From Escherichia phage EcWhh-1, in the sequence record MH791409.1: a stretch of 64,000 nucleotides of DNA; one strand, 5' to 3'. The notes under the pieces are model-generated. The model was not told the origin of the DNA, did no database searches, and saw only the letters and a program-made list of their open reading frames with translations. Shown here one piece after another: positions 9,162 to 25,294 of the stretch (position 1 is its first letter; each line of letters starts with the position of its first letter). Position numbers and translations under genes: made by a program.

Positions 9162-9734
9162 TCAACTCGTTATTTCTATCCAGTGCTTCCTGCACAATGA
9201 CACGTAAGAATCGTTGCCACCTATAGAAACTTGGGCTCCGTCCTTAATTGCGATACCATCTTGGATACGAGCCGTCATAGTAGCTTTACGGCCGCAATGG
9301 CACACACCTTTGTACTCAACGAGTTTATCTGCCGTAGCGAGTAATTCAGCAGAGCCAGGAAACAGTTTACCCTGAAAATCAGTTCTTAGTCCATAGCACA
9401 TAACTGGAACATTATAATTGTCTACTATCTTTGCCAGTTGTTTTATCTGTACAGGTTCTAAGAATTGTGCTTCATCCACAAACACACAGTGGATATCTTT
9501 TTGAGATTCAGCCCAACGATAGAACTCGTATAGGTCCATATCCGGAGTCACTGCATTAGCCTCTTGGCTAATCCCTATACGAGATGAAATGCTATGGCTT
9601 GATTCTCTATTGTCTATCGCAGGCTTTAAAAGGAGTACGCCCATACCACGTTCTTTGTAGTTATGAGCGGCTGTTAGCAATGAAGCGGTCTTCCCGGAAT
9701 TCATTGCTGCGTAGTGAAAATAAAGTTGGGCCAT
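9162..9734 (-). CDS. tk: thymidine kinase
   Basis: P-loop AMNSGKT, C-terminal Cys cluster typical of TK; position matches T4 tk. Confidence 0.9.
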   Translation of the reverse strand: MAQLYFHYAAMNSGKTASLLTAAHNYKERGMGVLLLKPAIDNRESSHSISSRIGISQEANAVTPDMDLYEFYRWAESQKDIHCVFVDEAQFLEPVQIKQLAKIVDNYNVPVMCYGLRTDFQGKLFPGSAELLATADKLVEYKGVCHCGRKATMTARIQDGIAIKDGAQVSIGGNDSYVSLCRKHWIEITS

Positions 9735-9743
9735 ATTACCTTC

Positions 9744-9950
9744 TTAAAGACTATTTACATAAGCTATTAATTCATTTTCTTTCTCATCAAATCGATTGGC
9801 AAATTCTTCCTGGTGTTCGGCATCTATAGGGCCATATTCATCATAAAAAGAATTTGCTTCTGCATGCTCATCCAAAAGCTCATGGATAAGCTCAAATAAT
9901 TTATCTTTCTGTTCTTTACTCAGACTCATAACCATTGCACCTTTAAGCAA
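9744..9950 (-). CDS. hypothetical small acidic protein
   Basis: ORF in operon. Confidence 0.45.
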   Translation of the reverse strand: MLKGAMVMSLSKEQKDKLFELIHELLDEHAEANSFYDEYGPIDAEHQEEFANRFDEKENELIAYVNSL

Positions 9951-10138
9951 TATTCTTCTACATGATGTTTACGTTTATTTTTATCTATAAAAGTATATTC
10001 AACGTATTCACCGATATACCATTTATCGGTGTTGTGTTGACTTTTTATAGGGCATTTAGTTACTCGGGTTTCAGTCCAACGTCGAATAATTTCCGCTTTG
10101 TTTTTAGGGTCAAACGGATGTGGGTAATGGGCTTTCAT
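9926..10138 (-). CDS. hypothetical small protein
   Basis: ORF in operon. Confidence 0.45.
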   Translation of the reverse strand: MKAHYPHPFDPKNKAEIIRRWTETRVTKCPIKSQHNTDKWYIGEYVEYTFIDKNKRKHHVEEYCLKVQWL

Positions 10139-10577
10139 AATCTACCACCACTAAATTAATATCAGGAGTAAACAAATTAATCAATTGATAAACCTTGTCC
10201 CAATCACCACCAGCAATACCACAACCGATACGAGGGATATAAATTCTTGGTTTAAACAAAAGACCCTTTGCGGTACGGTTTAATTCTATCATACAGTTTA
10301 CTAAAGCACCGTAATCAAGATTAGGACCTGGTTCGTATTGGGTGTATAAATTATAGCAAATTTGGCCCTTATTACCTGTGGCTTGAGTAAACGTGCCAAG
10401 TTTTTCCAAATGGCCTAAATAAGTGGTTTTATCGATAGCGAGAATAGGCGGATAAGCCTTAGCCAATTGTCCGGCTACACCTGAACCCATTGTGTGGAAA
10501 CAGTTGCACCCGTGCGCAACATTATTGCCTTGAAGAAACAGGGCGACGATATCGCCCTTAATATAATCAATAATCAT
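10110..10577 (-). CDS. macro-domain (ADP-ribose binding/hydrolase-like) protein
   Basis: NNVAHGCNCFHTMGSGVAGQL and RIGCGIAGG resemble macro-domain Gly-rich loops. Confidence 0.55.
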   Translation of the reverse strand: MIIDYIKGDIVALFLQGNNVAHGCNCFHTMGSGVAGQLAKAYPPILAIDKTTYLGHLEKLGTFTQATGNKGQICYNLYTQYEPGPNLDYGALVNCMIELNRTAKGLLFKPRIYIPRIGCGIAGGDWDKVYQLINLFTPDINLVVVDYESPLPTSV

Positions 10578-10930
10578 TTAGAGTTTAATCCTCGATTGTA
10601 AGAATCGACGAGTCTGTCTACCATAGACGCGCACATTTCTTTGTACTTTTTATCAGATGGAATACATTCAGTAACGTTTAGACGTTGCTCGTATCTTTTA
10701 GAAAGAGTTTTCTCTTTCATTCGGCGATGCTCTACGTCGTTCTGGCCATCTTTAAAAGCAGCTGTGATTTTTGAACTGAATTCGATAACGCATTCAGTAT
10801 TACTTGGATGACAATAATCTTTTGCTGTACGGGTAGCATACTCGACAATTGAATTATTGCTATCATCAACTTGTGACGCTAATACTCCCGGAGCTATCAA
10901 CATAAGCGCTATAGTCATCTGCTTAATCAT
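10574..10930 (-). CDS. secreted/periplasmic protein with signal peptide
   Basis: N-terminal hydrophobic signal-like segment, several Cys. Confidence 0.5.
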   Translation of the reverse strand: MIKQMTIALMLIAPGVLASQVDDSNNSIVEYATRTAKDYCHPSNTECVIEFSSKITAAFKDGQNDVEHRRMKEKTLSKRYEQRLNVTECIPSDKKYKEMCASMVDRLVDSYNRGLNSK

Positions 10931-11470
10931 TTAATATACCGCCTCAAACATCTTTTTAGATTTTAGGTAATTGGCCTTTTCTAGAACTTCAGAAGCATAT
11001 TTACTGCCTGCTTTGACGTTCCAGCCCGCATTATAAGAAGCAATCGCTTTTCTCAGGTCACCTTTGTGAACATCAATCCAATAAGACAGTTCAATGTAGG
11101 CCCAAGAGGCACTGTTCTGTCGTTTTTGGACCATACGAATTATTTCTTTGTCTGACATCTTCCAACCTACCTGTTGAACACGACTTCTTAACGTAGGCAA
11201 GTAATTTTGGAACATGCCATAAGCATGGTGCTTATCTTTATTTAAACCTTGATTAATTCCGGCTGATGATTCCTGCCATAGTAATCCGGCCATGATATAT
11301 CCTAATCCTTTTTGATTAGGGTTTTCTTTGAACTTTCCCGACTTTTGGTATTGTTCACCGAAAGCATACGCATAATGTAAATTATCGAGTTGTTCATTAC
11401 TGAAAGTAGGCTCTACGCTATAGGCAGACATACTAACTGTCAATAGTAAAGTGGCTAATACTTTTTTCAT
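10931..11470 (-). CDS. lytic transglycosylase-like (SLT domain) secreted protein
   Basis: Signal peptide; WQESS...GMFQ...YNAG motifs typical of SLT domains. Confidence 0.6.
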   Translation of the reverse strand: MKKVLATLLLTVSMSAYSVEPTFSNEQLDNLHYAYAFGEQYQKSGKFKENPNQKGLGYIMAGLLWQESSAGINQGLNKDKHHAYGMFQNYLPTLRSRVQQVGWKMSDKEIIRMVQKRQNSASWAYIELSYWIDVHKGDLRKAIASYNAGWNVKAGSKYASEVLEKANYLKSKKMFEAVY

Positions 11471-11482
11471 GAGACCTCATTA

Positions 11483-11941
11483 TTAAAGATAGATTACTTT
11501 CGTGCTGGTTTTACCTTCTAAACGTTTAGAGTTAACAAATGCCATACGACATTTTAATGAATATCCTTTATCAGGATGTTTACGATCTACGGTCATACCC
11601 AACCATAAGGTTTTATCGGTAATCTCGAGACGCAGCGGACGATACACCTTACCTGGGACAATTTCGGATTCTACATCAGGCAGAGGTTCCTGGATTAAGA
11701 ATTCATGGATTTCTTTAACATGGTTATGGAGTTGCTTGAATAAAGCAAAAACGTATTTTTCGTCGATTTCACGTTGGATAGCACGGTCCAACAAATGATT
11801 GGAGTACTTAATAAAGAAGGCTGGGACTCCGCTCTTAATGGCGGCTTTTTTGATGGACGCATTCAGTTCACGGAATTCGGTTTCAAACTGACGACGTAAT
11901 TTGTTGCGGCGGATGAATACTTCTGAATTAATTTCTGACAT
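11483..11941 (-). CDS. regB: RegB site-specific endoribonuclease
   Basis: High similarity to recalled T4 RegB (EVFIRRNKLRR...HLLDRAIQREIDE...LWLG). Confidence 0.85.
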   Translation of the reverse strand: MSEINSEVFIRRNKLRRQFETEFRELNASIKKAAIKSGVPAFFIKYSNHLLDRAIQREIDEKYVFALFKQLHNHVKEIHEFLIQEPLPDVESEIVPGKVYRPLRLEITDKTLWLGMTVDRKHPDKGYSLKCRMAFVNSKRLEGKTSTKVIYL

Positions 11942-15405: not shown

Positions 15406-15855
15406 TCAAAAGAGCGAATCTAAAACCTTAAACATCGACGGACCCATGACATATTCCCATTGAGGACGTTTAATCAAGGCGAACGCATCGAATTCAGGAA
15501 CCGTGCGACCATCAGGGAACGTATGGTAAGCGGTACATTTGCAATCCTTGAACTGCTCGTGTTCCACAGGCACAGTATATAAGAACAGATGTAGATTCTT
15601 ATTGCTTGAATATTTGAACTCACCTAGGTCTTTCAGGAACGCAGGATCGTATGCTGTGAATCCGATCTCTTCTTCGGTTTCACGCATTGCCGCTTGAATA
15701 GGCTCTTCGCCCGGTTCGACATGGCCTTTAGGAATGTCCCATTTATGACGCATGTTCTCTGGATTACGAGAGCCTGTTACACGACCCATAACTAGTTCTT
15801 TATCAACGGTCATGAATAAAATACCGGCAGATAATTCTTTCGCTTTCTTACTCAT
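15406..15855 (-). CDS. nudE: Nudix hydrolase
   Basis: Nudix box GHVEPGEEPIQAAMRETEEEIGF; table ORF extends to 15930, ATG at ~15855 fits T4 NudE length. Confidence 0.8.
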   Translation of the reverse strand: MSKKAKELSAGILFMTVDKELVMGRVTGSRNPENMRHKWDIPKGHVEPGEEPIQAAMRETEEEIGFTAYDPAFLKDLGEFKYSSNKNLHLFLYTVPVEHEQFKDCKCTAYHTFPDGRTVPEFDAFALIKRPQWEYVMGPSMFKVLDSLF

Positions 15856-16084
15856 CGTCTCGTTCCCATGATTGTTTAAAGATATCTCGTATAATAATTT
15901 CAACACATGTTTCTGTTGACGGACTTTCACTATCAGATATTTGGACCATATAATCAGAAATAGGTCGGAACATATCCAAGTCGCTTTCTAAATCTTCTTT
16001 GATTTTCTCTTCTGATGTTCCGGTGTCATAGGAATACAGATAAGAATCACATGACTCGGATTTAATATAAATTGCAATACTCAT
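15848..16084 (-). CDS. hypothetical small acidic protein
   Basis: ORF in operon. Confidence 0.4.
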   Translation of the reverse strand: MSIAIYIKSESCDSYLYSYDTGTSEEKIKEDLESDLDMFRPISDYMVQISDSESPSTETCVEIIIRDIFKQSWERDDE

Positions 16085-24452: not shown

Positions 24453-24527
24453 TGGTATCCCGCCCTGGGATCGAACCAGGACCGCAAACTTAGAAGGATC
24501 GTATGCTATCCATTACACCAGCGGGAC
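24453..24527 (-). tRNA. tRNA-Arg (anticodon UCU)
   Basis: Hand-folded cloverleaf: acceptor GTCCCGC/GCGGGAT, T-arm CCTGG-TTCGATC-CCAGG, anticodon loop CTTCTAA, 3' CCA encoded. Confidence 0.75.
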
Positions 24528-25217: not shown

Positions 25218-25294
25218 TGGTGACCCAGACCAGATTTGAACTGGTAACCTTTCCCTTATGAGGGGACTGCTGCTAACCATTGAGCTACAGGGCC
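25218..25294 (-). tRNA. tRNA with CAU anticodon (Met or Ile2)
   Basis: Hand-folded: acceptor GGCCCTG, T-arm ACCAG-TTCAAAT-CTGGT, anticodon loop CTCATAA, CCA encoded; one acceptor mismatch. Confidence 0.65.

What the first reader, a model, noticed from the sequence alone, without database searches (positions are those of the whole stretch)
10110..10577. Macro-domain-like protein in the tk-proximal early region
Gly-rich loops NNVAHGCNCFHTMGSGVAGQL and RIGCGIAGG resemble ADP-ribose-binding macro domains. Such a protein could bind or remove ADP-ribose marks or signals.
Basis: partly seen in the sequence, partly recalled or inferred. Interest (0 to 1): 0.5.

Follow-up and report, generated by a model that had tools for sequence, protein, structure and literature searches.

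The report
T4 tk.4 (AdfM) macrodomain ortholog
This gene is the ordinary, already-annotated copy of phage T4's tk.4 gene in a T4-like coliphage; it encodes a small macrodomain enzyme that most likely strips ADP-ribose off phage DNA to defeat the bacterial DarTG2 defence.

Summary
Window 10110..10577 (minus strand) is an intact 155-aa ORF containing both quoted motifs. It passes Pfam's Macro threshold. Its AlphaFold model (pLDDT 94.7) matches solved macrodomains: TARG1, Poa1p, DarG and BT1257. The window comes from a Dhakavirus-type T4-like coliphage, 97-98% identical in DNA to AnYang, IME08 and Bp7. The gene sits in the conserved order regB, vs.1, vs, tk.4, tk.3, tk. It is 53% identical over its full length to T4 Tk.4, and an identical protein is already in GenBank.

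A 2025 preprint showed that T4 tk.4 is the one gene T4 needs to resist DarTG2, and named it adfM. Enzymatic removal of ADP-ribose from thymidine was inferred there, not shown.

One nuance is added here. The Tk.4 family has an invariant Gln where DarG and TARG1 have the catalytic Lys. Its active site matches SCO6735/BT1257, and SCO6735 is a proven ADPr-thymidine DNA hydrolase. PhiKZ "AdfM" belongs to a different, DarG-like lineage.

Interest is low.

The parts
10110..10577 (-). tk.4 / adfM coding sequence: 155-aa stand-alone macrodomain protein
   Evidence: ORF. Pfam Macro above threshold. PHROG 335 E=5e-67. 53% identity to T4 Tk.4 over the full length, E=9e-62. Annotated tk.4 in IME08, Bp7 and JS10 at the syntenic position. 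AF2 pLDDT 94.7. Foldseek hits are macrodomains.
10464..10526 (-). Loop 1 region (residues 18-38, NNVAHGCNCFHTMGSGVAGQL). It contains His22, Gly23 and Asn25, which align to SCO6735 His24, Val25 and Asn27, and the GxG(V/I)A ADP-ribose-binding loop.
   Evidence: Translation. H22, G23, N25, G33 and A35 are invariant in alignments, though these positions were partly used as search patterns. Alignment to SCO6735, BT1257, TARG1 and Poa1p. Roles of the SCO6735 residues from PMC9411070.
10338..10352 (-). N76-L-Y78-T79-Q80 motif. Gln80 occupies the position of the catalytic Lys84 of TARG1 and Lys80 of DarG, and equals Gln85 of SCO6735.
   Evidence: HMMER alignments to TARG1 ('LITK') and SCO6735/BT1257 ('NMIGQ'). 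Residue equivalence Lys84 = Lys80 = Gln85 stated in PMC9411070. Q80 is found in 75 of 76 viral relatives and in all 81 rows of the bacterial-genome alignment (80 loci plus the window), and this motif was not part of the search patterns.
10206..10232 (-). Loop 2 / phosphate-binding loop (residues 116-124, RIGCGIAGG). Gly120 aligns to SCO6735 Gly128. Ala122 replaces TARG1 Asp125.
   Evidence: Translation. Alignments. G118 and G120 are invariant.
10431..10433 (-). Asp49 codon: a residue invariant in this subfamily but aligned to Tyr in SCO6735/BT1257. Role unknown.
   Evidence: Invariant, and 73 of 77 (the rest Glu). Aligned to Tyr in BT1257 and SCO6735.
10574..10593 (-). Translation start context: GAGGA (10589..10593) lies 11 nt upstream of the ATG, and ATGA overlaps the stop codon of the upstream gene vs (10574..10577), which suggests translational coupling of vs to tk.4.
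   Evidence: Sequence read directly. Same arrangement in T4.
10540..10558 (-). Conserved GC-rich hairpin in codons 7-13 of the mRNA (AGGGCGAUAUCGUCGCCCU) followed by a U-rich tract. Possible regulatory element; function unknown.
   Evidence: Terminator-like hit. MFE -18.9 kcal/mol, z=-2.8. Conserved in T4. Synonymous-site and compensatory pattern across phages.

Best explanation
The ORF is the Dhakavirus ortholog of phage T4 gene tk.4, recently renamed adfM (anti-DarT factor Macrodomain). It encodes a single-domain macrodomain of the ALC1/TARG1/DarG class. When the host carries DarTG2, the DarT2 toxin ADP-ribosylates thymidines in single-stranded phage DNA and blocks replication. The macrodomain most likely binds the ADP-ribose through its two glycine-rich loops and hydrolyses the ribose-thymine bond, releasing ADP-ribose and restoring replicable DNA. 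It would thus act as an 'orphan antitoxin' lacking the DarT-binding domain of DarG. Its active site is of the SCO6735 type: Asn25 and Gln80 position the distal ribose, and no catalytic Lys is present. Shown here: the fold, the orthology, the synteny and conservation of the active-site residues. Shown in the literature: T4 tk.4 is required for resistance to DarTG2, and Gln-type SCO6735 hydrolyses ADPr-thymidine DNA. Inferred: that this protein, or T4 Tk.4, has that enzymatic activity, and that the Dhakavirus allele protects against DarTG2.
For: Macro fold. Orthology to T4 tk.4: 53% identity, both 155 aa, E=9e-62. Identical gene order, vs-tk.4-tk.3, with an ATGA overlap with vs. The regB/vs.1/tk4/tk order is conserved in 28 T4-like loci. 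PHROG 335 E=5e-67. DarG models are the only hits in PADLOC (E=7.9e-6; T4 Tk.4 1.3e-9) and the top hit in NCBIfam. Function of the T4 ortholog: tk.4 was the single significant HIDEN-SEQ hit under DarTG2, and a clean knockout sensitises T4 (bioRxiv 10.1101/2025.11.20.689424). Active-site logic: H22, N25, Q80 and G120 align with SCO6735 His24, Asn27, Gln85 and Gly128. In SCO6735, Q85A and N27S abolish or nearly abolish ADPr-thymidine hydrolysis, and the enzyme rescues DarT toxicity (PMC9411070). N-x-Y-T-Q is invariant in 75 of 76 viral relatives and in all 81 rows of the bacterial-genome alignment. PhiKZ AdfM, a phage macrodomain of another lineage, removes DarT2-placed ADPr from DNA in vitro (PMC13309987).
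Against: No biochemical data exist for any Tk.4-type protein; the preprint itself says only that enzymatic removal 'seems likely'. The protein is only 53% identical to T4 Tk.4. The central third of the gene is a hypervariable cassette among otherwise near-identical Dhakaviruses, so specificity could differ. It lacks the catalytic Lys of DarG and TARG1. By sequence it is nearer to BT1257, SCO6735, TARG1 and Poa1p than to DarG: profile E-values of 1e-19 to 1e-14 against 3e-10. Poa1p is a small-molecule phosphatase. The mobile loop after the Gln is about six residues shorter than in SCO6735/BT1257 and lacks their lysines implicated in DNA binding. Bacterial relatives are stand-alone genes with no recurrent DarT neighbour, so the family is not intrinsically a DarT partner.
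Confidence: 0.7

Rival explanations
1. It is an ADP-ribose-1''-phosphate phosphatase, or another small-molecule ADP-ribose derivative hydrolase such as an O-acetyl-ADPr deacetylase. This is the reading behind the database name 'phosphatase / A1pp motif / Poa1p-like'. It would clean up NAD-derived metabolites during infection rather than repair DNA.
For: Annotations in RefSeq and PHROG read 'phosphatase', 'contains A1pp phosphatase motif' and 'Poa1p-like family protein'. Yeast Poa1p is a significant PDB hit (1.3e-6 for the single sequence, 1.2e-14 for the profile). It shares the H-x-C-N-C motif, with Poa1p His23 aligned to His22. Poa1p ranks fourth in Foldseek. A metagenomic relative is fused to a Nudix domain, and a phage NudE lies 5 kb away; both are compatible with small-molecule ADPr metabolism. 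Iyer et al. 2022 argue that many phage Macro domains may prefer soluble ADPr derivatives (PMC9503650).
Against: The T4 genetics gives a specific DarTG2 phenotype. No KptA/Tpt1-type source of Appr-1''-p was seen among the genes annotated in the syntenic region of IME08, which covers roughly the first 32 kb of the window. The single-sequence Poa1p match is significant only over the N-terminal 42 residues. Macrodomains are often promiscuous in vitro, so a phosphatase activity would not exclude the DNA role.
Confidence: 0.12
2. It is a protein or RNA de-ADP-ribosylase. It would reverse ADP-ribosylation of phage or host proteins (Glu/Asp-linked) or of RNA. That modification could come from host ART-based defences or from the phage's own Alt/ModA/ModB enzymes, whose action it would then tune.
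For: TARG1 is the best structural match, and it cleaves Glu/Asp-ADPr and nucleic-acid phosphate-ADPr. SCO6735 also de-modifies proteins. T4-like phages encode ADP-ribosyltransferases, and ADPr-based conflicts are widespread.
Against: The TARG1 catalytic dyad is absent: Lys84 is Gln80 and Asp125 is Ala122. From general knowledge, not tested here: Alt and Mod modify arginine, a linkage that macrodomains generally do not cleave. In the T4 screens reported, tk.4 appeared only under DarTG2.
Confidence: 0.1
3. It acts non-catalytically. It would either bind and inhibit DarT2 directly ('interaction-inhibition'), or sequester ADP-ribose-derived immune signals such as Thoeris gcADPR or His-ADPR as a sponge.
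For: Catalytically dead SCO6735, DarG and TARG1 still inhibit DarT in vitro, and SCO6735 does so most strongly. The central cassette of tk.4 is swapped between otherwise 97-100% identical phages; such a pattern is commoner for binding interfaces than for a fixed active site. Macro domains serve as ADPr-signal receptors in Thoeris II.
Against: Every residue needed for catalysis in SCO6735 is invariant across about 150 phage and bacterial relatives, which argues for retained enzymatic function. The protein lacks the DarT-binding C-terminal domain of DarG: 155 aa against a 338-position model, 20 bits against a cut-off of 250.
Confidence: 0.05

Closest known systems
Phage T4 Tk.4 = AdfM (NP_049723; bioRxiv 10.1101/2025.11.20.689424)
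   Same: Ortholog. It has the same length (155 aa), 53% identity end to end, the same position between vs and tk.3, the same ATGA overlap with vs, the same active-site residues (H, N, NLYTQ, PRIGxG), and the same 5' mRNA hairpin.
   Different: Loop 2 reads GCGIAGG here and GAGIGKG in T4. The central hairpin (residues about 55-75) differs and is 4 residues shorter. An 8-residue C-terminal tail overlaps tk.3 by 29 nt, against 4 nt in T4. No experiment has been done on the Dhakavirus allele.
Streptomyces coelicolor SCO6735 (PDB 5E3B) and Bacteroides BT1257 (2AFC/2FG1): stand-alone Gln-type ALC1-like macrodomains
   Same: These are the best PDB sequence matches (profile E 1e-19 and 6e-17). They share the His-x-x-Asn, Gln (in place of Lys) and GCG(I/L)AGGxW motifs and are stand-alone genes. 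SCO6735 hydrolyses ADPr-thymidine on DNA and neutralises DarT.
   Different: Identity is only about 24%. The Tk.4 family has Gly where SCO6735 has the 'catalytic backbone' Val25. Its mobile loop after the Gln is about 6 residues shorter and lacks the DNA-binding lysines. It has an extra invariant Asp49 where SCO6735 and BT1257 have Tyr.
DarG antitoxin macrodomain of DarTG2 (PDB 5M3I, 5M31/5M3E; NCBIfam NF048014)
   Same: Same fold and class (Foldseek probability 1.0, TM about 0.74), and the same biological target pathway: reversal of DarT2 thymidine ADP-ribosylation.
   Different: No catalytic Lys80 equivalent (Gln instead). No C-terminal DarT-binding domain. It scores 20 bits against the 250-bit equivalog cut-off. 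It is not encoded next to a DarT.
PhiKZ gp104 'AdfM' (Cell Rep 2026, PMC13309987)
   Same: A phage-encoded stand-alone macrodomain that counters DarTG2. Its in-vitro removal of ADPr from DarT2-modified DNA has been shown.
   Different: It belongs to a different lineage: 21% identity to the window protein. It is closely DarG-like (E=9e-25 to M. tuberculosis DarG) and retains the FPTK catalytic-Lys motif. It is imported into the phage nucleus. The name AdfM therefore covers two independently recruited macrodomain lineages.
Human TARG1/OARD1 (PDB 4J5R/4J5S) and yeast Poa1p (6LFR)
   Same: Top structural matches, with TM 0.75-0.77. Poa1p shares the HxCNC motif.
   Different: TARG1's Lys84/Asp125 dyad is replaced by Gln80/Ala122. 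Poa1p is a small-molecule ADPr-1''-phosphatase.

Membership tests
Macro domain superfamily (Pfam PF01661) | Profile score above the curated gathering threshold over most of the domain | tested here: met
   32 bits against a cut-off of 22, E=1.3e-7, profile positions 2-117 of 118.
Macro domain superfamily (Pfam PF01661) | Three-layer alpha/beta/alpha macro fold | tested here: met
   AF2 model with pLDDT 94.7 and pTM 0.88, alternating strands and helices. 156 Foldseek PDB hits at E<=0.001; the listed top 50 are macrodomains or designed enzymes built on a macro-like scaffold, with TM 0.67-0.77.
Macro domain superfamily (Pfam PF01661) | Conserved Asn after strand 2, plus the GxG loop and a second Gly-rich phosphate-binding loop | tested here: met
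   N25, G31-S-G33 and G118-C-G120-I-A-G-G are aligned to the equivalent motifs of BT1257, SCO6735, TARG1 and Poa1p and are invariant in the family.
Macro domain superfamily (Pfam PF01661) | Binds ADP-ribose | not testable with these tools
   Needs ITC, a thermal-shift assay or a co-crystal structure.
T4 Tk.4 / AdfM orthologous group (PHROG 335) | Full-length sequence similarity to T4 Tk.4 | tested here: met
   53% identity over 155 of 155 residues, E=9e-62. PHROG 335 E=5e-67.
T4 Tk.4 / AdfM orthologous group (PHROG 335) | Conserved genomic position between vs and tk.3/tk in the regB-tk block | tested here: met
   Window order is regB, vs.1, vs, tk.4, tk.3, DUF7438, tk. T4 and IME08 annotations show the same order, as do 28 T4-like loci.
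T4 Tk.4 / AdfM orthologous group (PHROG 335) | Confers resistance to DarTG2 | not testable with these tools
   Shown only for T4. Needs plaque assays with a knockout or with complementation.
DarG antitoxin (NCBIfam NF048014 equivalog) | Score above the equivalog cut-off, with a two-domain architecture (macrodomain plus C-terminal DarT-binding domain) | tested here: not met
   20.1 bits against a cut-off of 250. The match covers only model positions 12-138 of 338, and the protein is 155 aa.
DarG antitoxin (NCBIfam NF048014 equivalog) | Catalytic lysine (DarG Lys80, equal to TARG1 Lys84) | tested here: not met
   Gln80 aligns with TARG1 Lys84. The Lys84 = Lys80 = SCO6735 Gln85 equivalence comes from PMC9411070. 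DarG itself was not aligned residue by residue here.
DarG antitoxin (NCBIfam NF048014 equivalog) | Encoded next to a DarT toxin | tested here: not met
   The flanking genes are vs and tk.3. No recurrent neighbour family was found around 80 bacterial relatives; this rests on clustering only, and no DarT HMM was run.
SCO6735/BT1257-type (Gln-type) ALC1-like macrodomains | Gln at the catalytic-Lys position, held by the conserved Asn, plus the Gly128 equivalent | tested here: met
   Q80, N25 and G120 align to Gln85, Asn27 and Gly128. Q80 is invariant in 75 of 76 viral relatives and in all 81 rows of the bacterial-genome alignment.
SCO6735/BT1257-type (Gln-type) ALC1-like macrodomains | Val/Ile25 'backbone catalyst' and the elongated, Lys-bearing mobile loop | tested here: not met
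   The position is an invariant Gly23. The loop after Q80 is about 6 residues shorter than in BT1257 and SCO6735. The Tk.4 group is therefore a sister subfamily rather than a member.
TARG1/OARD1 | Lys84/Asp125 catalytic dyad | tested here: not met
   Gln80 and Ala122 occupy the aligned positions.
Poa1p-type ADPr-1''-phosphate phosphatase | Significant similarity, including the His23 equivalent | tested here: inconclusive
   His22 aligns with Poa1p His23 and HxCNC is shared. Ser30 aligns with a variable Thr29 and Phe152 with Ala122. The single-sequence match is significant only for residues 3-44. Phosphatase activity cannot be tested here.

The most novel reading that the evidence does not exclude
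The Tk.4-type 'AdfM' proteins may not be captured DarG antitoxins at all. They may be a separate, ancient, stand-alone Gln-type macrodomain subfamily with the signature HGCNC ... D49 ... NxYTQ ... PxIGxGxAGGxW, also found as chromosomal singletons in many bacterial phyla. In that case they would use a Lys-independent mechanism and might have a wider substrate range than thymidine-ADPr, including protein or RNA ADP-ribosylation by other defence ARTs. The central cassette is exchanged between otherwise 97-100% identical Dhakaviruses. That would then reflect an ongoing arms race with DarT variants, or with a host sensor of the macrodomain.
Probability: 0.25. Interest if true: 0.4.

Novelty: already known. 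Interest (0 to 1): 0.15.

Why it matters
The finding adds little on its own. It re-identifies a gene that T4-like phage annotations already label tk.4, 'A1pp/macro domain' or 'phosphatase', and whose T4 ortholog has been assigned an anti-DarTG2 role. It is useful as a correct annotation: this Dhakavirus probably carries an enzymatic counter-defence against DNA ADP-ribosylation, which bears on host range in phage-therapy candidates of the JS98/IME08 group. The residue-level comparison gives a concrete mutagenesis plan. It shows Gln in place of the DarG/TARG1 Lys and a subfamily-specific invariant Asp49. It also shows that T4 AdfM and PhiKZ AdfM are different lineages, which cautions against assuming a DarG-like mechanism.

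Tried and rejected
1. DarG membership was rejected. The protein falls below the NCBIfam cut-off, has no second domain, no catalytic Lys and no DarT neighbour.
2. I checked whether PhiKZ AdfM, which has biochemistry, is the same family. It is not: 21% identity, and it is DarG-like with an FPTK motif. The hhalign register around the catalytic position was off by one and of low confidence, so the Lys/Gln contrast rests on the HMMER alignments to TARG1, SCO6735 and DarG instead.
3. I looked for a DarT-like or other recurrent neighbour around 80 bacterial homologs by ORF clustering. Only housekeeping genes and spurious GC-rich ORFs recurred, in at most 7 loci. No DarT HMM was run, so this is a weak negative.
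5. An Rfam gathering scan of the whole window found only two tRNAs and nothing at the tk.4 hairpin.
6. The sigma-70 promoter scan gave fewer hits than the shuffles (9 against 12.4), so no promoter claim is made.
8. The first T4 record hit (MZ375356) was a mutant clone with a truncated tk.4 annotation. It was replaced by NC_000866.

Full report
**Observation**

Both quoted peptides are present: 10464..10526(-) translates to NNVAHGCNCFHTMGSGVAGQL and 10206..10232(-) to RIGCGIAGG. No ORF of 40 aa or more on the opposite strand lies inside the gene. The gene's G+C content (39.7%) equals that of the window (39.8%).

**Is it a macro domain?**

Yes, by every independent test.
- Pfam Macro (PF01661) scores 32 bits against a gathering cut-off of 22, E=1.3e-7, covering 116 of 118 profile positions.
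- phmmer against PDB sequences finds only macrodomains at E<=0.04: BT1257 (5.5e-9), SCO6735, Poa1p, M. tuberculosis DarG and TARG1.
- A 33-sequence family profile raises these to 1.3e-19 (BT1257), 6.4e-17 (SCO6735), 1.9e-16 (TARG1), 1.2e-14 (Poa1p) and 2.9e-10 (DarG).
- An AlphaFold2 model from a 40-sequence alignment has mean pLDDT 94.7 and pTM 0.88.
- Foldseek against the PDB returns TARG1, Poa1p, DarG and BT1257 first, with probability 1.00 and TM 0.74-0.77.

**What the locus is**

The 2.4 kb around the gene is 97-98% identical to Escherichia phages AnYang, C6, IME08 and Bp7 (genus Dhakavirus, Tevenvirinae). In those genomes the gene is annotated tk.4, 'phosphatase' or 'hypothetical protein'. 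An identical protein is in GenBank as a hypothetical protein of phage EcWhh-1.

The minus-strand gene order, with family assignments from Pfam and PHROGs, is:
- regB, 11483..11941
- vs.1, 10931..11470
- vs, 10574..10930
- tk.4, 10110..10577
- tk.3 (DUF7202), 9926..10138
- DUF7438, 9744..9950
- tk, 9162..9734

This is the T4 order. The protein is 53% identical to T4 Tk.4 over all 155 residues, E=9e-62. In 28 of the 79 viral loci retrieved, the macrodomain gene lies in the same regB/vs.1/tk block.

The tk.4 ATG overlaps the vs stop codon as ATGA, and GAGGA lies 11 nt upstream, as in T4. tblastn finds relatives in 2,731 of 50,697 phage records. These include T4-like, FelixO1-like, rV5-like, Pakpunavirus, Ackermannviridae and Vibrio phages.

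**What is known**

- T4's reference annotation already notes an 'A1pp phosphatase motif'.
- Iyer et al. 2022 report Macro domains in 41% of myoviruses (PMC9503650).
- The HIDEN-SEQ preprint (10.1101/2025.11.20.689424) found tk.4 as the single significant T4 hit under DarTG2. A clean knockout is sensitised. The authors named the gene adfM and inferred, without showing, enzymatic removal of ADP-ribose from DNA.
- DarT2 ADP-ribosylates thymidine in ssDNA, and DarG2 carries the reversing macrodomain (PMC11825919).

The finding is therefore a correct recognition of an already described gene.

**Mechanistic detail added here**

In the HMMER alignments the family motif N76-L-Y-T-Q80 lines up with TARG1 'Y-L-I-T-K84' and with 'N-M-I-G-Q' of SCO6735 and BT1257. 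PMC9411070 states that TARG1 Lys84, DarG Lys80 and SCO6735 Gln85 are equivalent. In SCO6735, Q85A abolishes hydrolysis of ADPr-thymidine DNA, and N27S and G128E greatly reduce it. SCO6735 also rescues DarT toxicity.

The window protein has the following residues at the key positions:
- His22, aligned to SCO6735 His24
- Gly23, aligned to Val25
- Asn25, aligned to Asn27
- Gln80, aligned to Gln85
- Gly120, aligned to Gly128
- Ala122, where TARG1 has Asp125

Gln80 and the NxYT motif were not used as search patterns. They are conserved in 75 of 76 viral relatives and in all 81 rows of the bacterial-genome alignment, which is 80 loci plus the window.

The family also differs from SCO6735. It has an invariant Gly where SCO6735 has Val25. 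Its loop after the Gln is about 6 residues shorter. It has a subfamily-specific invariant Asp49 where SCO6735 and BT1257 have Tyr.

Against DarG it fails membership. It scores 20 bits against a 250-bit cut-off, has no second domain and no catalytic Lys. Bacterial relatives showed no recurrent neighbour, and no DarT-like gene stood out among the recurrent neighbour clusters; no DarT HMM was run.

PhiKZ gp104 is also called AdfM and has been shown to de-ADP-ribosylate DarT2-modified DNA (PMC13309987). It is only 21% identical to the window protein. It is a close DarG relative (E=9e-25) and retains the FPTK motif. The two 'AdfM' proteins are thus separate recruitments of different macrodomain lineages.

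**Most likely function**

The protein is most likely a thymidine-ADP-ribose DNA glycohydrolase that neutralises DarTG2 (confidence about 0.7).
- Shown here: fold, orthology, synteny and conservation of the catalytic motifs.
- Shown in the literature: the T4 phenotype, and the activity of Gln-type SCO6735.
- Inferred: the activity of this protein and protection by this allele.

The rivals are not mutually exclusive:
- Poa1p-like ADPr-1''-phosphatase or other small-molecule ADPr hydrolase (0.12)
- protein or RNA de-ADP-ribosylase (0.10)
- non-catalytic DarT inhibition or signal sponge (0.05)

**Side observations**

1. A GC-rich 8-bp hairpin lies in codons 7-13 of the mRNA (10540..10558, minus strand) and is followed by a U-rich tract. 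It is retained in T4 and in every examined phage whose protein reads KGD[IL][VI]AL. Loop codon positions vary while synonymous sites in the stem are fixed. There is one compensatory G:C to A:U change, AAG to AAA paired with CTG to TTA or TTG.
2. JS98-like Dhakaviruses have 97-100% identical flanks but only 55-58% nucleotide identity in the centre of tk.4 (window 10279..10378). They carry a 159-aa allele.
3. One metagenomic relative is a Macro-Nudix fusion, and the window encodes a NudE-like Nudix hydrolase at 15406..15930(-).

**Verdict**

The feature is already known, and interest is low (0.15).

Noticed in passing
window 10540..10558 (- strand), inside the 5' end of tk.4: A GC-rich 8-bp hairpin (AGGGCGAUAUCGUCGCCCU, loop AUC) lies 20 nt after the AUG and is followed by GUUUCUU. 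It is conserved in T4 and in all examined phages whose protein reads KGD[IL][VI]AL. Synonymous sites in the stem are fixed while the loop codon varies. There are U.G to C:G and U.G to U:A changes and one compensatory G:C to A:U change. It uses GGC, GTC and GCC codons within a 40% G+C genome. It may be an attenuator/terminator or an mRNA stability element; nothing matches in Rfam.
   Followed up: partly
window 10279..10378 (centre of tk.4), compared with L008/L009 (JS98-like phages): This is a mosaic cassette. The flanking genes regB, vs.1, vs, tk.3 and tk are 97-100% identical, but the middle of tk.4 drops to 55-58% nucleotide identity (78% aa overall) and the allele is 159 aa. Conversely, L030 has distant flanks but a 76%-identical tk.4. 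This suggests recombinational allele exchange within the macrodomain gene.
   Followed up: partly
L005:7518-8006 (PhiKZ gp104) compared with window 10110..10577: The name 'AdfM' is used for two unrelated macrodomain lineages. PhiKZ gp104 is DarG-like with the FPTK catalytic-Lys motif (E=9e-25 to M. tuberculosis DarG). T4 and Dhakavirus Tk.4 is a Gln-type protein closest to BT1257 and SCO6735. The two are only 21% identical.
   Followed up: yes
protein P0114 (metagenomic relative, 247 aa); window 15406..15930 (-): One relative, 39% identical, is a Macro-Nudix fusion. The window itself encodes a Nudix hydrolase (NudE-like; Pfam NUDIX E=1.1e-14) about 5 kb from tk.4. It could in principle dispose of released ADP-ribose. 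From memory, T4 NudE is reported to be active on ADP-ribose; this was not checked here.
   Followed up: partly
L085-L164 (bacterial genome loci): Tk.4-type macrodomains with 33-43% identity and the same HGCNC / D / NxYTQ / GxGxAGGxW signature occur as stand-alone chromosomal genes in Rhodobacterales, Desulfobacterota, Planctomycetota, Verrucomicrobiota, Bacteroidota and others. Their neighbours are housekeeping genes, and no recurrent toxin-like partner was found.
   Followed up: partly
window 10431..10433 (- strand), Asp49 of Tk.4: This Asp is invariant in the subfamily: all 81 rows of the bacterial-genome alignment, and 73 of 77 viral relatives with the rest Glu. It aligns with Tyr in SCO6735 and BT1257. 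It is a candidate extra catalytic or structural residue not discussed in the literature read.
   Followed up: no
window 10110..10138: tk.4 overlaps the start of tk.3 (DUF7202) by 29 nt, because of an 8-residue C-terminal tail (ESPLPTSV). In T4 the overlap is 4 nt.
   Followed up: no
window 24453..24527 and 25218..25294 (- strand): Only two tRNA genes, Arg-TCT and Met-CAT, are found, about 700 nt apart. The close relative IME08 has three contiguous tRNAs (Arg, Asn, Met) at the syntenic place. The tRNA cluster is therefore rearranged or interrupted in this phage.
   Followed up: no
window 10574..10930 (- strand), gene vs: The adjacent gene vs (valyl-tRNA synthetase modifier) overlaps the tk.4 start as ATGA and so is probably translationally coupled to it. 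The HIDEN-SEQ preprint reports it as the most strongly depleted T4 gene in minimal medium.
   Followed up: no
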